A stretch of 40,681 bases of DNA. Origin: a virus. Positions 1 through 40,681 of this stretch are shown here, one piece after another. The position numbers and the translations under genes were made by a program. How positions within the stretch are numbered: the stretch's first letter is position 1; each line of letters starts with the position of its first letter. The stretch lies in IMG/VR virus record IMGVR_UViG_3300019889_000005, positions 1 through 40,681 of that record; one strand, given 5' to 3'. The notes under the pieces are model-generated. The model did not search any database. It saw only the letters and a list, made by a program, of their open reading frames with translations, and was not told where the DNA came from.

Positions 1-127
1 CATCCTTAGTAAATGCGGATGCGTTTAAACCATCCAGCAGATCAGCATCTAACCCGGAACCCACACCATCATTGCCGCTATGCCATACGGTATTGCCGTT
101 AACGAATAATTTTGCCGTGTTCCCTGG
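1..127. repeat. Left copy of a perfect 127-bp direct terminal repeat (identical to 40555..40681). This is the assembly-overlap signature of a circular or circularly permuted genome with a unique length of 40,554 bp.
   Basis: Read directly: catccttagtaaatgcggatgcgtttaaacc...ttttgccgtgttccctgg is present at both window ends with no mismatch. Confidence 0.95.
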
Positions 128-13783: not shown

Positions 13784-14032
13784 ATGCATATATTAAAATA
13801 CGAAGAAGCAGGCCGAATACTACAGGACTTAAGAGCTATTGATAGCTCTATAATCACATTCGATAAATTGTCAAAACTTAAAGACCCGTTGCAAAATGTA
13901 CATGACGGATTTTTCTTAATAGATAAGCTAGTTAATCTTGGATTATTAGATATGCATGCCCTTATTCAAACGGCTCTCAGTAAATTACTTTTAGCCCAGC
14001 AAGAGCTTTCGACCAAATTCGATAACTTATAA
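13784..14032 (+). CDS. Hypothetical protein (plus-strand island)
   Basis: 82-aa ORF with an ATG start. It is the first gene after the divergent region. Confidence 0.5.
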   Translation: MHILKYEEAGRILQDLRAIDSSIITFDKLSKLKDPLQNVHDGFFLIDKLVNLGLLDMHALIQTALSKLLLAQQELSTKFDNL

Positions 14033-14043
14033 ACCTCTGAATT

Positions 14044-14316
14044 ATGCAATCGGTAGATTTTGAAGGCTCCAACCGCACACTTGGCAAACCTGAAGGCATG
14101 ACAGAAGAACAATGCCGAGCACTGCCTATAAGAGATATTGAACAGATTATTATTAATCCTGAAACGAATGAGTCTACCAAAATACCATTCGTGGTTTCTT
14201 GCTGGTGCCTCACGTTAGTAGAGATTGAAGAATTAGTAAGAACAGGCGTGTTGTGGGTCGGGATAAATGGCTACACGCAGCCGCCTATATTTATCACCAC
14301 CGTTAAACCCTTCTAA
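14044..14316 (+). CDS. Hypothetical protein (plus-strand island)
   Basis: 90-aa ORF, 11 nt after the previous stop. Confidence 0.5.
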   Translation: MQSVDFEGSNRTLGKPEGMTEEQCRALPIRDIEQIIINPETNESTKIPFVVSCWCLTLVEIEELVRTGVLWVGINGYTQPPIFITTVKPF

Positions 14317-14317
14317 G

Positions 14318-14620
14318 ATGATAACCGGCATAGATATAAGTGCCTTAGATATACCCGCCGCAACACTCAGCAGTATAGCCAAATGTCTTGAAAATAAGTC
14401 TCTGTTTGGTCTTACTAATGGCAAAGCTTATACGTTATTCAAGACAGATAAGCTAGAAGTTGTGTGGATTGATCGAAATGGCAGGTACACACACGTCAAA
14501 TGCCCAACCGCCGATCAATTTGTCGATCTGATGAAGATATCACTTCTCAGCCGGAGAACATATTTAAGTGCTAAACGTGTTAATGAATTATTTCTACACG
14601 CCAAACTGTTACAAAAATGA
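14318..14620 (+). CDS. Hypothetical protein (plus-strand island)
   Basis: The ATG at 14318 lies 1 nt after the previous TAA. The track version 14267..14620 starts earlier in the same frame. Confidence 0.45.
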   Translation: MITGIDISALDIPAATLSSIAKCLENKSLFGLTNGKAYTLFKTDKLEVVWIDRNGRYTHVKCPTADQFVDLMKISLLSRRTYLSAKRVNELFLHAKLLQK

Positions 14621-14661
14621 GATTAATAACTGAAGATTATTCATATGCTTAAACATAAAAT

Positions 14662-15027
14662 ATGCTAATAGAGAATATACTTATCGAGCAAGAATGGCCG
14701 CACCTAGAAATAAAAAACTATTACGCAGTAGAGCTGAATTTTAAGAATGATTTAACACATAATATAGGTACAGTAAGAGTATTTAAAAATGGATTCGGCA
14801 TTTGTGGCAATTTTGATCTAAACGATGGTTACGAAGAAGCTTTTCTATTGCTGTTTCCTTCCATAGGCTATAGAATTATAGCCGGAGACTATGATGATTC
14901 AGGTAAATGCATAAATATCAGACAGGGCGAAATAATCAGCATCGGCCTATGTAGCGAACCTAACCTTGATCCTACAATTAAATGCTTAGGCGATCAAATA
15001 CTAGACAATGAAAAAAACGAAAGCTAA
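14662..15027 (+). CDS. Hypothetical protein (plus-strand island)
   Basis: 121-aa ORF. Confidence 0.5.
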   Translation: MLIENILIEQEWPHLEIKNYYAVELNFKNDLTHNIGTVRVFKNGFGICGNFDLNDGYEEAFLLLFPSIGYRIIAGDYDDSGKCINIRQGEIISIGLCSEPNLDPTIKCLGDQILDNEKNES

Positions 15028-15187
15028 ACGGGGCAGACCTAAAACCAAATTTAGAGTGCCATTAGTGTTCCAAATAGATACCTCTGTTGCTGAGGTACTT
15101 CCTTACATAAACCGCAGCGATCTGGTAAACGAGCTGTTAGGTAGCAATTCCATGATTAAGAAAATGATTGATCAAAATAAAAAATAA
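15008..15187 (+). CDS. Small basic protein, possibly ribbon-helix-helix DNA binding
   Basis: 59-aa ORF below the track cutoff: MKKTKAKRGRPKTKFRVPLVFQIDTSVAEVLPYINRSDLVNELL... This gives a basic arm, a beta strand and two helices. Confidence 0.3.
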   Translation: MKKTKAKRGRPKTKFRVPLVFQIDTSVAEVLPYINRSDLVNELLGSNSMIKKMIDQNKK

Positions 15188-15354
15188 TGGTAGGGGCAGT
15201 TTATATAAGATATCTATTTTCCGATGGCACTACAATTGGTGCTGCGGCATGGGATACAACCAATTTTTGGATACAATGTGTTATGCTGCATAATAGCGGC
15301 CCGATTGTTTGTAAACTCCACATAAAACTTAAACCGTGCAAAAATACTATCTGA
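15187..15354 (+). CDS. Small hypothetical protein
   Basis: 55-aa ORF whose ATG overlaps the previous TAA (TAATG). Confidence 0.25.
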   Translation: MVGAVYIRYLFSDGTTIGAAAWDTTNFWIQCVMLHNSGPIVCKLHIKLKPCKNTI

Positions 15355-15620
15355 TCACGATGGGCCGTGAAGGCAAAGCTTATACCTTTCCGCACGCTGC
15401 TGCTGATACAAAGAGTCCTACCAAGATATTCATTGACTTAATGAGCACGGAACCTGAACCTTGGACATGGTCACTACTGCTTGCTTTAGAAATAAGTTTT
15501 GACGATTACAGGGACTATTGTAATTTTTTAAAAGAGTATGAAAAAATACAGGATCATAAAGAGTTATCGAATTTGCAATGCTTACTGGATATACCATCTC
15601 CAACAGCAAATAAAAACTAA
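15336..15620 (+). CDS. Hypothetical protein (plus-strand island)
   Basis: 94-aa ORF from a GTG. There is an alternative ATG at 15360 (MGREGKAY...). Confidence 0.4.
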   Translation: MQKYYLITMGREGKAYTFPHAAADTKSPTKIFIDLMSTEPEPWTWSLLLALEISFDDYRDYCNFLKEYEKIQDHKELSNLQCLLDIPSPTANKN

Positions 15621-15840
15621 AAAGAAGAATTTGTTTGGTAGGTGTATTCCTGATGTTTGGGAGTATTGCGGCACAGGATTTTCATGCGCTTCAACCGCTG
15701 ATGTGGACATAGTAAGAAGCTGGATGATAAATTTAGACGCGCACCTATATATTGAAAACCCATTAACAAAGGAATTATCATTGCCCGGGCCGTTTGAACT
15801 AAATGCCAATGATCCTAGTCAATCCGGCCGATGCTCTTGA
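15538..15840 (+). CDS. Hypothetical protein, the last ORF of the island (uncertain)
   Basis: 100-aa ORF that overlaps the previous ORF and the convergent 3' end of the Mu-F-like gene. Confidence 0.25.
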   Translation: MKKYRIIKSYRICNAYWIYHLQQQIKTKKKNLFGRCIPDVWEYCGTGFSCASTADVDIVRSWMINLDAHLYIENPLTKELSLPGPFELNANDPSQSGRCS

Positions 15841-35966: not shown

Positions 35967-36190
35967 GGTTTGATATTTATGTTATTTTCCACCATTACTT
36001 TTTTCAACGATTCTATCGTAGTTACATCTTTTGCCAGGATGCCTTTGTTATACGTCCGTAGTTGCCCATGATATATAAGATAGCATACTGTGTCATTTTC
36101 TATTTCTGCTACAGCTATTAATCCTGCCGCATCATCTTCTATTATCATAAAACCCAAATCGATTAAGCATTTATGTGGTATAGTATTCAT
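35963..36190 (-). CDS. Hypothetical protein
   Basis: I prefer the ATG at 36190 (MNTIPHK...). The track start at 36220 lies in the loop of the terminator hairpin. Confidence 0.45.
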   Translation of the reverse strand: MNTIPHKCLIDLGFMIIEDDAAGLIAVAEIENDTVCYLIYHGQLRTYNKGILAKDVTTIESLKKVMVENNINIKP

Positions 36191-36203
36191 AGAGTGCGGA
36201 TTT

Positions 36204-36232
36204 AAAAAGCTCCCGGCCATAACACCGGGAGC
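36204..36232 (-). terminator. Canonical intrinsic terminator immediately upstream of the operon starting at 36190
   Basis: On the minus strand, GCTCCCGG (36232..36225), loop TGTTATGG, CCGGGAGC (36216..36209), then TTTTT. Confidence 0.7.
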
Positions 36233-36403
36233 GAGCCGGATTCAATCAAATAGAAATGCAATACTGAAATTTTAAATAGCCGTTTCTTCCGAATAGCTCC
36301 CGGTTTATTCTCCCAGAGCAGGAGAGTATTTTTTAGTTCTCCAATTGTTACCGGAGGTAGAAACAACCGGTCTAAATCTATGTCAACAATAGGAAAAACT
36401 CAG

Positions 36404-36445
36404 TGGGCTGAACAGGATTCGAACCTATTTGCTCCCAGGCAGCCC
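36404..36445 (-). ncRNA. tRNA-like minihelix (acceptor stem plus T arm only), module 1
   Basis: GGGCTG-c-CTGGGAGCAAAT-ATAGG-TTCGAAT-CCTGT-TCAGCCC-A, followed by CTGAGTTTTT. There is no D arm or anticodon arm. Confidence 0.45.
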
Positions 36446-36531
36446 GATTAAATAAGTCCCCAGACTAAACAGCCAGGGACTATTGTAACCCCTATGAAAA
36501 AATAACCAATAACAATCTTCTACAATAAGCG

Positions 36532-36678
36532 TGGACTGAACAGGATTCGAACCTGTCAAACGAAGCGTGTTTTTTAGCCGTGCATTACTTTGGCTCTGCC
36601 ATTAGTCAGTATGTAACCTGGACGTCCACTACCAGCACTACATGTTCCTTGGCACTTCGTTTGCTACCTAGCCAGCCC
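36532..36678 (-). ncRNA. tRNA-like / tmRNA-TLD-like structured RNA, module 2
   Basis: 5' GGGCTGG pairs with 3' TCAGTCC (giving G3:U70), followed by A73. The T arm is a perfect ACAGG-TTCGAAT-CCTGT. An 8-bp helix AAACGAAG/CTTCGTTT closes an insert of about 90 nt made of nested hairpins. Confidence 0.4.
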
Positions 36679-36704
36679 ATTTGCCGGCGGGGCCATTCCG
36701 GCTG

Positions 36705-36968
36705 TCAAAAAACTACCTTAGGTTTTCTTGTTTTAAGCCCCAAATTTGGCGTTACATAAAATATCAGCTTATGTGCTGTCCTCCTGTAAAATAGCCGGGT
36801 ATCAATCCGCTTAGTGGCCTTCCACGCTATTTTAAAATAAGACGGGTTATGTAGAAACAAATCCCGTGGCTTTTGACCATATCCTATGAAAACCCTATTT
36901 ACATCTACAAGCCTTGCGCTTGTAATTCCTTTATATAAGCTTCTACTTTTCGTAATTGTCCGCGCCAT
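36705..36968 (-). CDS. Hypothetical basic protein (uncertain)
   Basis: 87-aa ORF that overlaps the 3' end of 36905..37363 by 64 nt. Confidence 0.25.
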   Translation of the reverse strand: MARTITKSRSLYKGITSARLVDVNRVFIGYGQKPRDLFLHNPSYFKIAWKATKRIDTRLFYRRTAHKLIFYVTPNLGLKTRKPKVVF

Positions 36969-39988: not shown

Positions 39989-40681
39989 TTAAAGGACTGC
40001 TGCCGATGTGTATAAAGATATGATAAACCAAGTCGTACCATTGCACTGTATTGTCATAGAGCTGTATTGAGCTGTTAAAGTTTTACCGGCCGCGTTCCCG
40101 TCTATTGTCTCAGATGCAGCGCCATCCACAATAACATCATTTGCTGCAGCACTTATCTTTTTTATAACATAAATCCTACCTGTACATGTAGCTGCGGCTG
40201 GAAGTGTTATTGTTACTGATCCTGAATTATTGACCAATATGGTATGATGCTCGCCGATGGTCGTATTACCTGTAACTGTTGTAATAGAACGTCCGTTCGA
40301 TCCAACAACCTCAAATTTTGAATTGGGGGTTGTGCCATTCACAATAAAATTACCGACCCCGGTAATACTCAATGTTGCATTTGGATTGTTGATATCAAAA
40401 CGGGTTCCCAGGTGCTGGAAATTCACATCTGATGCGGCTGCTCTTACAAATCTTGCTATAGGCGTAGTGCCGGAAAAAGTACCACTACCTGAAATGTTAA
40501 AATTCGCTGACTGAGCAGTGGTTGTGTTTCTTATGTATGCTGTACTGGTTCCGTCATCCTTAGTAAATGCGGATGCGTTTAAACCATCCAGCAGATCAGC
40601 ATCTAACCCGGAACCCACACCATCATTGCCGCTATGCCATACGGTATTGCCGTTAACGAATAATTTTGCCGTGTTCCCTGG
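39989..40681 (-). CDS. C-terminal part of the same tailspike ORF (unique part 39989..40554). The joined protein is about 922 aa.
   Basis: Position 1 equals position 40555, and both are first codon positions of the same minus frame. The track ORF 39989..40618 merely starts at an internal GTG. The frame is open to the window end and stops at 39989. Confidence 0.85.
   Translation of the reverse strand, partial: PGNTAKLFVNGNTVWHSGNDGVGSGLDADLLDGLNASAFTKDDGTSTAYIRNTTTAQSANFNISGSGTFSGTTPIARFVRAAASDVNFQHLGTRFDINNPNATLSITGVGNFIVNGTTPNSKFEVVGSNGRSITTVTGNTTIGEHHTILVNNSGSVTITLPAAATCTGRIYVIKKISAAANDVIVDGAASETIDGNAAGKTLTAQYSSMTIQCNGTTWFIISLYTSAAVL
40555..40681. repeat. Right copy of the 127-bp direct terminal repeat
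   Basis: Identical to 1..127. Confidence 0.95.

What the first reader, a model, noticed from the sequence alone, without database searches (positions are those of the whole stretch)
36404..36678. An ORF-free gap holds two tandem tRNA-like modules, and one closes an alanine-type acceptor stem (G3:U70, A73) around a structured insert of about 90 nt
Two 24-nt cores on the minus strand (plus coordinates 36403..36426 and 36531..36554) are 23/24 identical and 128 bp apart. They read AGGTTCGAATCCTGTTCAG(C/T)CCAC. That is a canonical T stem-loop (A(T/C)AGG-TTCGAAT-CCTGT) followed by a 7-nt acceptor 3' strand and a discriminator A. Neither module folds into a cloverleaf by hand.

Module 1 (36445..36404) is a 42-nt acceptor/T-arm minihelix: GGGCTG ... 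TCAGCCC-A, then a T-run.

Module 2 (36678..36532) pairs 5' GGGCTGG with 3' TCAGTCC, giving G1-C72, G2-C71, G3:U70, C4-G69, U5-A68, G6-C67 and G7:U66. It then has a 9-nt GG-containing linker (CTAGGTAGC) and an 8-bp helix AAACGAAG/CTTCGTTT (36662..36655 with 36565..36558). That helix closes an insert with nested hairpins (TGCCA/TGGCA, ATGTA/TACAT, CTGG/CCAG, AGCC/GGCT), and the perfect T arm follows.

An acceptor stem, a D-loop analogue, a long closing helix and a T arm together make the topology of the tmRNA tRNA-like domain. G3:U70 with A73 is the alanine identity set. However, the element is only about 147 nt, CCA is not encoded, and I find no convincing tag ORF.

Alternative explanations are degenerate phage tRNA genes, attP-type copies of a host tRNA 3' end (although no integrase is present), or a tRNA mimic or decoy.
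Basis: partly seen in the sequence, partly recalled or inferred. Interest (0 to 1): 0.75.

Follow-up and report, generated by a model that had tools for sequence, protein, structure and literature searches.

The report
Two anticodon-less tRNA-like modules in phage
The largest gene-free stretch of this 40.5-kb phage genome holds two related sequences that keep a tRNA's amino-acid-accepting half but have no anticodon; they are not a tmRNA, a normal tRNA or an integration site, and whether they are working tRNA mimics or leftovers of a broken tRNA gene is still open.

Summary
On the minus strand, 36554-36531 and 36426-36403 are 23/24 identical, and each is a canonical T arm, a 7-nt acceptor 3' strand and a discriminator A.

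The two modules are also alike at their 5' ends (GGGCTG-S-CT-(A)-GG-K-AGCAAA-Y). Module 2 (36678-36531) is therefore module 1 (36445-36404) plus an insert of about 105 nt closed by an 8-bp helix.

- **Detectors:** ARAGORN and Rfam find no tRNA or tmRNA. Relaxed ARAGORN calls appear only at noise level or just below threshold.
- **Origin:** the 3' frame matches tRNA-Arg genes and the T arm of Flavobacterium Y-RNA-like units.
- **Y RNA membership:** a model built from those units scores only 18.4 bits here.
- **Context:** the phage has no integrase, Ro60, RtcB or SmpB. It looks like a lytic phage of Bacteroidota.
- **Conservation:** no close relative exists (at most 52% aa identity), so covariation in this element cannot be tested.
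- **Wider family:** more distant family members carry anticodon-less tRNA-like genes, with covarying acceptor, D and T stems, at another locus.

Best reading (about 0.45): tRNA-Arg-derived, non-decoding tRNA "top-half" RNAs. Module 2 would act as a natural tRNA scaffold for a structured insert. Main rival (about 0.3): inert tRNA remnants. A tmRNA-like role is unlikely.

The parts
36531..36678 (-). Module 2, a tRNA-like RNA of about 147 nt. Acceptor 5' strand GGGCTGG 36678-36672. D-arm remnant/linker CTAGGTAGC 36671-36663. Helix AAACGAAG 36662-36655 paired with CTTCGTTT 36565-36558. Structured insert 36654-36566. T arm ACAGG-TTCGAAT-CCTGT 36556-36540. Acceptor 3' strand TCAGTCC 36539-36533. Discriminator A 36532.
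   Evidence: Sequence. The MFE fold equals this structure. Pair probabilities: acceptor about 1.0, T arm 0.86, helix at least 0.9.
36404..36445 (-). Module 1, a 42-nt acceptor/T-arm minihelix. GGGCTGC 36445-36439. Linker CTGGGAGCAA 36438-36429. T arm ATAGG-TTCGAAT-CCTGT 36428-36412. TCAGCCC 36411-36405. A 36404. Followed by CTGAG and a T5 run at 36398-36394.
   Evidence: Sequence. Acceptor pairing probability about 1.0, T arm 0.10 with a competing pairing. The only Rfam hit is tRNA-Sec at 15.5 bits, E = 5, for an alternative register 36474-36406.
36403..36426 (-). Repeat copy 1 (3' half of the T arm, acceptor 3' strand, AC)
36531..36554 (-). Repeat copy 2, 23/24 identical to copy 1. The 25 nt at 36556-36532 are identical to the 3' end of a bacterial tRNA-Arg(TCT).
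36455..36481 (-). Hairpin AGTCCC...GGGACT directly upstream of module 1; a possible 5' leader
36191..36904 (-). ORF-free gap that holds both modules; the largest non-coding stretch of the 40,554-bp genome
   Evidence: Public gene calls on the identical contig, ORF map, the wrap-around gene explains the apparent gap at 1-2108, and the 87-aa ORF has no homologue.
36883..36892 (-). TTTTCATAGG, first of two exact copies. The second copy (36500-36491) lies 55 nt upstream of module 1. Candidate promoter or regulatory motif; this role is inferred.
   Evidence: A similar TTTCATA motif lies about 57 nt upstream of tRNA-Asn in related locus L012.
36491..36500 (-). TTTTCATAGG, second copy
36204..36232 (-). 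Intrinsic-terminator-like hairpin GCTCCCGG...CCGGGAGC plus a T run, closing the gap just before the next gene (ATG at 36190)

Best explanation
The gap holds two paralogous small-RNA genes derived from a tRNA, most like tRNA-Arg. They keep only the 'top half' of a tRNA: a 7-bp acceptor stem stacked on a canonical T arm, plus a short GG-containing remnant of the D arm. They cannot decode, because they have no anticodon arm.

Module 1 is the bare 42-nt minihelix. Module 2 is the same frame with a structured domain of about 90 nt on an 8-bp helix, placed where the anticodon arm would emerge.

Inferred mechanism:
1. Both modules are transcribed with the early genes, on the same strand.
2. Each folds into a tRNA-like L-shaped top half.
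3. RNase P cuts at the 5' G (36678 and 36445).
4. The 3' end is trimmed after the discriminator A, and the host enzyme adds CCA.
5. The products are stable tRNA-shaped RNAs.

The tRNA half would then serve as a processing and stability scaffold, and as a handle for proteins that read the acceptor/T-arm/elbow. Module 2 would carry a functional insert. The RNAs could alternatively act as non-decoding mimics or decoys of host tRNA.

Shown: the sequence anatomy, the paralogy of the two modules, the thermodynamic fold of module 2, the tRNA-Arg-type origin of the 3' frame, and the absence of any anticodon arm. Inferred: transcription, processing, CCA addition and every downstream role.
For: 1. Both modules keep a perfect T loop (TTCGAAT), a G53-C61 closing pair and a 5-bp T stem. 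Each has a complementary acceptor 5' strand, although that strand lies 10 nt from the T arm in module 1 and 115 nt from it in module 2.
2. The modules are homologous at both ends. Of the 3 stem positions that differ, 2 keep the pair (U-G to C-G in the T stem, G-C to G-U at 3:70) and the third goes from a C/U mismatch at 7:66 in module 1 to a G-U wobble in module 2.
3. The module 2 insert sits exactly at the anticodon-arm position and is closed by a perfect 8-bp helix. The MFE structure equals this fold, with pair probabilities of 0.86 to 1.0.
4. Both linkers (CUAGGUAGC and CUGGGAGC) keep a GG that could play the part of G18-G19 at the elbow (sequence plus established tRNA and tmRNA tRNA-like-domain knowledge).
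5. The 3' frame is that of real tRNAs. There is 25/25 identity to a bacterial tRNA-Arg(TCT). The 21-mer occurs in tRNA-Arg genes of several bacterial lineages and in phage tRNA-Arg and tRNA-Cys genes.
6. The genome is tightly packed and this 714-nt gap is its largest ORF-free stretch.
7. In the wider phage family, 28 of 80 sampled loci carry tRNA-like genes whose acceptor, D and T stems are conserved, with 5 covarying pairs. Their anticodon region varies in length and sequence and gives no consistent anticodon. Non-decoding tRNA-shaped RNAs are therefore a maintained trait of this lineage.
8. A TTTTCATAGG motif lies 55 nt upstream of module 1. A similar motif lies about 57 nt upstream of a genuine tRNA-Asn in a related phage.
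Against: - No homologue of the element itself was found, so there is no conservation or covariation evidence for it. The best relatives of the flanking and replication proteins are at most 52% identical, and BLASTN of the gap against their loci finds only T-arm matches.
- Folding energies are not exceptional: z = -1.27 for module 2 and -0.90 for the whole region.
- The T arm of module 1 is thermodynamically disfavoured (p = 0.10).
- No promoter was identified. The Bacteroidota -7 motif is absent from the gap and the sigma-70 scan found none next to the modules.
- CCA is not encoded.
- The tRNA-like genes of relatives lie at a different locus, keep a D arm and share no sequence with these modules. 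They are an analogy, not homologues.
- The phage encodes no recognisable tRNA-handling protein.
- There are no expression data.
Confidence: 0.45

Rival explanations
1. The modules are inert remnants of tRNA genes. An ancestral phage tRNA (Arg-like) was duplicated and then wrecked by internal deletions and an insertion. The T arm and acceptor strands survive only because the events are recent or because of gene conversion. Nothing functional is made.
For: - The 3' frame is identical to genuine tRNA-Arg genes, while the D and anticodon arms are gone.
- No detector accepts either module at default settings.
- A related phage has an intact tRNA-Asn, plus a fragmentary tRNA-like piece, in the corresponding gap. 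This locus therefore gains and loses tRNA genes.
- The T arm of module 1 is not the favoured fold.
- Folding z-scores are unremarkable.
- Partial, non-canonical tRNA genes are a documented by-product of genome rearrangement (PMC9897764).
Against: - Random decay should not spare both acceptor strands and the whole T arm in two copies while removing exactly the D stem and the anticodon arm.
- The two copies differ at 3 stem positions. Two of the changes keep the pair, and the third is a mismatch in module 1 against a wobble pair in module 2.
- The module 2 insert is closed by a perfect 8-bp helix at the anticodon-arm junction.
- A compact lytic genome keeps 714 nt of it.
- Relatives maintain anticodon-less tRNA-like genes under structural selection.
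Confidence: 0.3
2. Module 2 is a miniature tmRNA-like or alanine-accepting RNA. AlaRS charges it through G3:U70 and A73, and it acts on ribosomes or in another aminoacyl-dependent pathway.
For: - G1-C72, G2-C71, G3:U70 and A73 are present in the stated register.
- The order acceptor, GG linker, long helix, T arm matches the tmRNA tRNA-like domain.
- A GCC-initiated 15-codon frame exists in the insert.
- Minihelices carrying G3:U70 are known AlaRS substrates (established knowledge; PMC11392972 for context).
Against: - There is no tmRNA call by ARAGORN at 100% or 90% threshold. The 80% call is noise, with 352 calls in 1.74 Mb.
- No Rfam tmRNA, cyano_tmRNA or tmRNA_permuted hit appears at E <= 10. 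The same tools did find true tmRNAs in L007 and L010.
- No pseudoknots were recognised by ARAGORN or the Rfam tmRNA models.
- The candidate tag is buried in a hairpin and ends in ...QVTY rather than in a recognisable degradation-tag ending.
- The paralogue, module 1, has G3-C70.
- No SmpB is encoded.
Confidence: 0.07
3. The repeats work at the DNA level: as an attP-type core copied from the 3' end of a host tRNA, or as another recombination, replication or packaging site.
For: - There is an exact 25-nt match to the 3' end of a bacterial tRNA-Arg(TCT) on a chromosomal contig that also carries folK.
- tRNA 3' ends are classic integration targets (established knowledge).
Against: - Pfam scans of 52 ORFs and PHROG scans of 20 ORFs, together covering every ORF of 150 aa or more, found no integrase or recombinase.
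- The 22-mer has 0 hits in 185,579 species genomes and 0 in IMG/VR.
- No large ORF (100 aa or more) that could encode an integrase lies within the 2.4 kb held downstream of the matching tRNA in L011.
- Each copy also has its own complementary 5' strand and linker, which a DNA core does not need.
- There is no GC-skew inflection at the site.
Confidence: 0.05
4. The region encodes a Y-RNA-like (YrlA-type) RNA whose permuted tRNA-like domain engages the host Ro60/Rsr machinery.
For: - The 21-mer T-arm frame is identical to the T arm of Y-RNA-like units lying between TROVE (Ro60) and RtcB genes in at least 11 Flavobacterium species.
- Module 1 is followed by CTGA. TCAG-CCCA-CTGA could therefore form the short closed hairpin seen in those units.
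- A related phage locus gives a weak YrlA hit (26.3 bits).
Against: - Rfam YrlA does not match the window at E <= 10.
- A covariance model built from the Flavobacterium units scores only 18.4 bits, E about 0.1, on 36595-36466.
- The gap has no GUCGUA-type motif as in the Flavobacterium units, no D arm and no long terminal stem.
- No Ro60 or RtcB is encoded.
- The L012 hit falls to E = 0.2 in a larger search. Tandem tRNA-like units are a known source of false YrlA hits (PMC4201824).
Confidence: 0.05

Closest known systems
tRNA-like domain of tmRNA (SsrA)
   Same: A 7-bp acceptor stem with G3:U70 and A73 (module 2). No D stem, but a GG-containing linker. A long helix leaves where the anticodon stem would. 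Canonical T arm.
   Different: About 147 nt instead of about 350 nt. No pseudoknots were recognised. No credible tag frame. Not recognised by ARAGORN or by three Rfam tmRNA models. The paralogue lacks G3:U70. No SmpB partner is encoded.
Bacterial Y RNAs with a tRNA-like domain (YrlA, Rfam RF02553), including the Flavobacterium rsr-rtcB units found here
   Same: Non-decoding RNAs that keep the tRNA T arm and elbow. The 21-nt T-arm frame is identical to the Flavobacterium units. M. smegmatis YrlA is cleaved by RNase P and receives CCA (PMC4201824).
   Different: YrlA is circularly permuted (T arm, closed acceptor hairpin, D arm), has a Ro60-binding stem and sits next to rsr. The window modules are in normal tRNA order, lack a D arm and a Ro-binding motif, and fail both covariance models.
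Anticodon-less tRNA-like genes of related phages (L056, L057, L058, L079 and others, downstream of the DUF2800 exonuclease)
   Same: Same phage family and same gene strand. Acceptor and T arms are kept while the anticodon region is replaced by variable sequence. Sometimes two occur in tandem, 89-108 nt apart. CCA is not encoded.
   Different: Those keep a normal D arm and pass the Rfam tRNA threshold (44-48 bits). They lie at another locus. They share no sequence with modules 1 and 2 beyond the generic T loop.
Engineered 'tRNA scaffold' for RNA expression, and acceptor/T-arm minihelix model substrates of RNase P, CCA-adding enzyme and AlaRS (from my own knowledge, not checked here)
   Same: Module 2 has the design of a tRNA scaffold, with the cargo RNA grafted onto the anticodon stem. 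Module 1 has the design of the classic minihelix substrate.
   Different: Those are laboratory constructs. Nothing shows that the phage RNAs are made or processed.
tRNA gene fragments at integration sites (att cores)
   Same: An exact copy of a tRNA 3' end, present as a direct repeat.
   Different: No integrase. Repeats are 128 nt apart. Each has its own complementary 5' strand. No matching host genome among 185,579 species.

Membership tests
canonical tRNA (Rfam RF00005 / ARAGORN) | 7-bp acceptor stem and a 5-bp T stem with a T-loop consensus | tested here: met
   Both modules. Pair probabilities; the T arm of module 1 is weak.
canonical tRNA (Rfam RF00005 / ARAGORN) | D arm, and an anticodon arm with a 7-nt loop | tested here: not met
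   ARAGORN at default settings finds 0 genes. Module 2 is called as 'tRNA-Tyr + 70-nt intron' only at a 95% threshold with introns allowed, and that fold would break the 8-bp helix. The mitochondrial (armless) mode also finds 0.
canonical tRNA (Rfam RF00005 / ARAGORN) | Covariance-model score at or above the gathering threshold | tested here: not met
   No RF00005 hit even at E <= 10. The only hit is tRNA-Sec at 15.5 bits against a gathering score of 47.
tmRNA | tRNA-like domain with G3:U70, a discriminator A and a T arm | tested here: met
   Module 2 only; module 1 has G3-C70.
tmRNA | Resume codon and a tag reading frame with a degradation-tag ending, preceded by PK1; further pseudoknots | tested here: not met
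   The only GCC-initiated frame is AKEHVVLVVDVQVTY*, which lies inside a hairpin. ARAGORN reports 'Tag not identified'. Neither ARAGORN nor the Rfam tmRNA models recognise the pseudoknotted body; no dedicated pseudoknot prediction was run.
tmRNA | Recognition by ARAGORN or by the Rfam tmRNA, cyano_tmRNA and tmRNA_permuted models | tested here: not met
   None at default or 90% threshold. The call at 80% is noise, with 352 calls in 1.74 Mb. Positive controls were found in L007 and L010.
tmRNA | Alanylation and SmpB binding | not testable with these tools
   Needs biochemistry. No SmpB domain was found among the phage ORFs.
Y RNA-like (YrlA) | Permuted order: T arm, closed acceptor hairpin, D arm, inside a long Ro60-binding stem with a conserved motif | tested here: not met
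   No Rfam YrlA hit. Custom model R1 scores 18.4 bits, E about 0.1. The gap has no GUCGUA motif as in the Flavobacterium units and no D arm.
Y RNA-like (YrlA) | Encoded next to an rsr (TROVE) gene | tested here: not met
   No TROVE or RtcB domain among 52 window ORFs. The Flavobacterium units do have this context.
attP / tRNA 3'-end integration core | Identity to the 3' end of a host tRNA gene | tested here: inconclusive
   25/25 identity to one metagenomic bacterial tRNA-Arg(TCT). The 22-mer has 0 hits in 185,579 species genomes. The host is unknown.
attP / tRNA 3'-end integration core | Integrase or recombinase in the element | tested here: not met
   Pfam and PHROG scans.

The most novel reading that the evidence does not exclude
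Modules 1 and 2 are expressed, RNase P-processed and CCA-tailed tRNA 'top halves' that the phage uses against its host. One version is an uncleavable decoy or sponge for immune or toxin enzymes that recognise the tRNA acceptor stem, T arm and CCA tail. An example of such an enzyme is the recently described tail-cutting Cas12a3 (PMC12851939). The other version has module 2 as a natural tRNA scaffold that stabilises and delivers a 90-nt effector RNA. Together with the anticodon-less tRNA-like genes of related phages, they would define an undescribed class of phage non-decoding tRNA mimics.
Probability: 0.15. Interest if true: 0.8.

Novelty: new variant of a known kind. Interest (0 to 1): 0.5.

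Why it matters
Phage tRNA genes are usually explained by codon usage or by replacing host tRNAs that defence nucleases have cut. RNAs that keep only the acceptor/T-arm half cannot do either job.

If they are made, they point to a different use of tRNA shape by phages. Candidates are processing and stability scaffolds, decoys for enzymes that read the tRNA body or CCA end, or charged minihelices.

Module 2 would be a natural counterpart of the engineered tRNA scaffold. The parallel finding, that many related gut and environmental phages keep tRNA-like genes with covarying acceptor, D and T stems and no anticodon, suggests a wider unannotated class. Standard tRNA finders either miss these genes or give them inconsistent anticodons.

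Tried and rejected
- **Standard detectors.** ARAGORN on the whole window and on the gap found nothing. Rfam at gathering thresholds found nothing. Rfam in E-value mode on 36150-36950 gave only chance-level hits: tRNA-Sec 15.5 bits, rteR, Spot 42 and CRISPR-DR13.\n- **Sequence homologues of the gap.** BLASTN against 50,697 phage records found no match. The 24-mer had 0 hits in IMG/VR. The 22-mer had 0 hits in GTDB species genomes. In metagenomes it had 2 hits, a normal tRNA-Arg and an unrelated tRNA with an insert.\n- **Synteny route.** Homologues of the 152-aa upstream neighbour (at most 51% identity) and their contigs have no module of this type. BLASTN of the gap against all loci gave only T-arm matches. 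The 243-aa neighbour gave nothing in IMG/VR.\n- **Exonuclease route.** The closest homologue is 52% identical. The 80 family loci hold different tRNA-like genes at another locus.\n- **Pattern for the module 1 linker plus T loop in IMG/VR.** It mostly returned ordinary tRNA-Pro(UGG) genes, whose anticodon arm happens to read GGGAGCAAA. I judged the resemblance to tRNA-Pro uninformative.\n- **Relaxed ARAGORN.** The permuted-tmRNA call at an 80% threshold was rejected after calibration (352 calls in 1.74 Mb). The 'tRNA-Tyr with 70-nt intron' call at 95% was rejected as the main fold: it breaks the 8-bp helix, no splicing route for such an intron is known in bacteria, and the same mode gives inconsistent anticodons to homologous elements in relatives.\n- **Y-RNA hypothesis.** A covariance model built from 11 Flavobacterium units gave a marginal hit only.\n- **MAFFT alignment of module 1 against module 2 core.** It misplaced the gap, so I did not build a model from it.\n- **Promoters.** The Bacteroidota -7 motif (TAnnTTTG) is not present in the gap and is not enriched in the genome.\n- **Small ORFs of the gap.** They have no relatives in the fetched loci or in 1.84 billion representative proteins.
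Full report
**1. What the window is**

The window is a complete phage genome that was assembled as a circle. Its first 40 nt recur at 40555, so the genome is 40,554 bp. The same contig is present in a public run, SRR7026474.

Almost all genes lie on the minus strand. They include:
- a family A DNA polymerase, a primase-helicase, an SNF2-type helicase and a DUF2800/PD-(D/E)XK exonuclease;
- large terminase, portal, major head protein and tail genes.

PHROG scans of 20 ORFs and Pfam scans of 52 ORFs, together covering every ORF of 150 aa or more, found no integrase. They also found no Ro60/TROVE, RtcB, RNA ligase, CCA-adding enzyme or SmpB.

Only 3 of 40 genes have a Shine-Dalgarno-like motif and the leaders are A-rich. 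From established knowledge this is typical of Bacteroidota hosts. The host assignment is an inference.

Minus-strand frame 0 is open across 1-2200, as part of a wrap-around gene of about 922 aa. A plus-strand cassette fills 13.8-15.8 kb. The stretch 36191-36904 (714 nt) is therefore the largest ORF-free region. Public gene calls leave it empty. The 87-aa mechanical ORF at its upstream edge has no homologue among 1.84 billion representative proteins.

**2. The observation**

The 24-nt repeat is real: 23/24 identical, 128 nt apart, with 0.00 matches expected by chance. Read on the minus strand, each copy is the 3' part of a canonical T arm, then seven nucleotides, then A.

- GGGCTG(C) at 36445-36439 pairs with TCAGCCC.
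- GGGCTGG at 36678-36672 pairs with TCAGTCC, including G3:U70 and G7:U66.

Pair probabilities are about 1.0 for the acceptor, 0.86 for the T arm and at least 0.9 for the helix AAACGAAG/CTTCGTTT.

For module 1, the acceptor stem is firm. The T arm has only 0.10 probability, because a competing pairing exists.

Folding energies are not unusual compared with shuffled sequence: z = -1.27, -2.10 and -0.90. Thermodynamics alone therefore proves nothing.

The 5' segments are homologous too: GGGCTGC-CT-GGGAGCAAAT against GGGCTGG-CTAGGTAGCAAAC. The two modules are paralogues over both ends. Module 2 equals module 1 plus about 105 nt inserted between AGCAAA and the T arm.

**3. What it is not**

*A normal tRNA.* ARAGORN finds nothing at default settings, even with introns allowed or in its armless mitochondrial mode. 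Rfam tRNA does not match at E <= 10. With introns of up to 200 nt allowed and the threshold lowered to 95%, ARAGORN draws module 2 as tRNA-Tyr(GUA) with a 70-nt intron after position 37. I do not adopt this drawing, for three reasons:
- It breaks the perfect 8-bp helix in favour of weaker stems.
- As far as I know, bacteria have no way to splice such an intron.
- The same mode gives His, Phe, Ala or Tyr anticodons to clearly homologous elements in related phages.

*A tmRNA.* No call appears at default or 90% threshold. The permuted-tmRNA call at 80% (tag AKEHVVLVVDVQVTY*) is one of 352 such calls in 1.74 Mb of control sequence, 12 of them inside this window. No Rfam tmRNA family matches. The same tools did find a standard tmRNA in L007 and a permuted tmRNA in L010. 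The candidate tag frame lies inside a hairpin.

*An att site.* There is no integrase. The 22-mer has no match in 185,579 species genomes or in IMG/VR. Each copy has its own complementary 5' strand.

*A member of the YrlA family.* See section 5.

**4. Where the sequence comes from**

The 25 nt at 36556-36532 are identical to the 3' end of a bacterial tRNA-Arg(TCT). That tRNA lies on a chromosomal contig that also encodes HPPK.

The 21-mer ACAGGTTCGAATCCTGTTCAG occurs in tRNA-Arg(CCT/TCT/ACG) genes of several bacterial lineages. It also occurs in tRNA-Arg and tRNA-Cys genes of large phages. Those genes share the CTGG...TCAG acceptor frame, with its G7:U66 wobble.

The linkers CUAGGUAGC and CUGGGAGC can be read as a collapsed D arm that keeps U8, the G18-G19 pair and A21. 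That reading is my inference from the sequence.

The modules are therefore derived from a tRNA, most probably of the Arg type.

**5. The Y-RNA lead**

Among the 29 genome hits to the 21-mer, at least 11 are Flavobacterium species in which it is not part of a tRNA. In those genomes it is the T arm of a repeated unit made of:
- a T arm;
- a short closed hairpin, TCAG-loop-CTGA;
- a D-like arm;
- a long covarying stem.

In the two loci I scanned, the array lies upstream of an RtcB gene (L127), and in L123 it lies between a TROVE (Ro60) gene and RtcB. The neighbouring unit gives sub-threshold Rfam YrlA hits of 30-33 bits. This is the Y-RNA architecture of PMC4201824.

Module 1 is followed by CTGA, so a TCAG-CCCA-CTGA hairpin is possible there. 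However:
- A covariance model built from the 11 units scores only 18.4 bits (E about 0.1) on 36595-36466.
- The window has no motif like the GUCGUA of those units, no D arm and no rsr gene.

I conclude that the window modules share tRNA-Arg-type ancestry with those units, or converged on the same common T arm. They are not members of that family.

**6. Relatives**

The phage has no close relative in any collection searched. The best homologues are 51% identical for the upstream neighbour and 52% for the exonuclease. Direct conservation and covariation tests of modules 1 and 2 could therefore not be done.

The most similar locus, L012, has a 975-nt gap at the corresponding place. It holds a genuine tRNA-Asn and a fragmentary tRNA-like piece that gives a marginal YrlA hit.

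In the wider family I sampled 80 IMG/VR loci through an exonuclease profile. Of these, 28 carry one or two tRNA-like genes about 0.65-1.1 kb downstream of the exonuclease, on the gene strand. Their properties:
- Some reach the Rfam tRNA threshold (44-48 bits), with 20-30 nt in place of the anticodon loop.
- In an alignment of 14, the acceptor, D and T stems are conserved, with five pairs changed on both sides. The anticodon region has no common structure.

This shows that non-decoding tRNA-shaped RNAs are maintained in this lineage. It supports, by analogy only, a functional reading of modules 1 and 2.

**7. How it most likely works**

My best estimate, at about 0.45, runs as follows:
1. The modules are transcribed with the early genes.
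2. They fold as tRNA top halves.
3. RNase P cuts 5' of G36678 and G36445.
4. The 3' end is trimmed after A73 and the host adds CCA.

This would give a 42-nt minihelix RNA and a 147-nt RNA whose tRNA half acts as a scaffold for a structured insert. Every step after the fold is inferred.

Possible roles, in my order of preference:
1. A scaffold or stabiliser for the insert.
2. A mimic or decoy for proteins that read the acceptor stem, T arm and CCA. Such enzymes exist in phage defence; PMC12851939 describes one.
3. Punctuation of the early transcript by RNase P.
4. Alanylation of module 2.

The main rival, at about 0.3, is that these are recent wreckage of a duplicated tRNA gene.

**8. Verdict**

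The tmRNA and alanine interpretation is only partly supported: the topology fits, membership does not.

The element is best filed as a new variant of phage tRNA-like RNA with unknown function. Interest is moderate. The anatomy is unusual and points to an unannotated class. The evidence for function in this genome is structural and circumstantial only.

Noticed in passing
L056 9800-9880, L057 9801-9884, L058 9807-9881, L079 9937-10020 and 10026-10109, L081 9934-10014, L084 8709-8783, and about 20 further loci: 28 of 80 related phage loci carry one or two tRNA-like genes 0.65-1.1 kb downstream of the DUF2800 exonuclease. Acceptor, D and T stems covary (5 pairs changed on both sides). The anticodon region varies in length and sequence, and ARAGORN gives inconsistent anticodons. 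Many have the trailer N73-CTA instead of CCA.
   Followed up: partly
L127 300-560, L123 3960-4110, L121, L122, L126, L128, L129, L131, L134, L141, L144: Flavobacterium chromosomes hold tandem Y-RNA-like units, each starting with GTCGTAGAYAAGAGTTACTTCG. In L127 the array lies upstream of an RtcB gene, and in L123 between a TROVE (Ro60) gene and RtcB; gene context was checked only in these two loci. One unit has a T arm identical to the window core. Rfam YrlA matches only below threshold (30-33 bits against a gathering score of 69), so these look like an under-modelled YrlA/YrlB subgroup.
   Followed up: partly
L012 5434-5507 and 5557-5637: The phage whose neighbour gene is closest to the window's has, in the corresponding gap, a normal tRNA-Asn(GTT) followed by a permuted tRNA-like piece (T-arm-like hairpin, closed CTTAGCC/GGCTAGG stem, D arm). 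Its YrlA hit is marginal (26.3 bits). It shares the 12-mer TGGCTAGGTAGC with module 2.
   Followed up: partly
window 36867-36842 and 36371-36350 (minus strand): Two hairpins carry the same loop core, TTGTTTCTAC, and have stems ACGGG/CCCGT and ACCGG/CCGGT, a compensatory G-C to C-G change. The exact 10-mer occurs nowhere else in the genome.
   Followed up: partly
window 36892-36883 and 36500-36491 (minus strand): The exact 10-mer TTTTCATAGG occurs twice, only in the gap. The second copy is 55 nt upstream of module 1. TTTCATA-type motifs recur in the L012 gap, one of them about 57 nt upstream of tRNA-Asn. This is a possible phage promoter or regulatory motif. Together with CGGCTATTT (36797 and 36282), the short repeats are colinear between the two halves of the gap.
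   Followed up: partly
window 36303-36204 (minus strand): CCGGGAGC (36303-36296), GCTCCCGG (36232-36225) and CCGGGAGC (36216-36209) plus a T run could form alternative antiterminator and terminator hairpins just upstream of the next gene (ATG at 36190). The weak rteR and Spot 42 hits here only reflect the terminator.
   Followed up: no
L010 335-849 (QLAH01012716.1): A 2.4-kb metagenome contig packs three elements: a tRNA with a 26-nt insert that shares 26 nt with module 2, a permuted tmRNA (Rfam 57 bits), and a tRNA with a 47-nt insert in the anticodon region.
   Followed up: partly
L007 1276-1681, 2851-3249, 4744-4870, 7637-7870: A 310-kb phage contig carries a tmRNA, a GOLLD RNA (316 bits), a tRNA with a 57-nt insert in the anticodon loop, and a Leu-type D arm joined to the same T arm as the window across an AT-rich insert of about 170 nt. 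Similar 'Leu-type D arm + insert + T arm' elements occur in L003 (929-1082) and L047 (7050-7155).
   Followed up: no
L104 5750-5850, L106, L108, L118 6204-6307: Further phage tRNA-like sequences with good acceptor and T arms but no recognisable D or anticodon arms, not called by ARAGORN at default settings.
   Followed up: no
window 36705-36968 (minus strand): An 87-aa basic ORF overlaps the end of the upstream gene by 64 nt and ends 27 nt before module 2. It has no homologue in 1.84 billion representative proteins and is not called on the public contig. It is probably not a gene.
   Followed up: yes
window 13784-15840 (plus strand): A cassette of small plus-strand ORFs with reversed GC skew lies inside an otherwise minus-strand genome.
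   Followed up: no
window 1-127 and 40555-40681: The window has a 127-nt terminal redundancy (an assembly circle). A gene of about 922 aa with a beta-helix (NosD-like) domain runs across the junction.
   Followed up: yes
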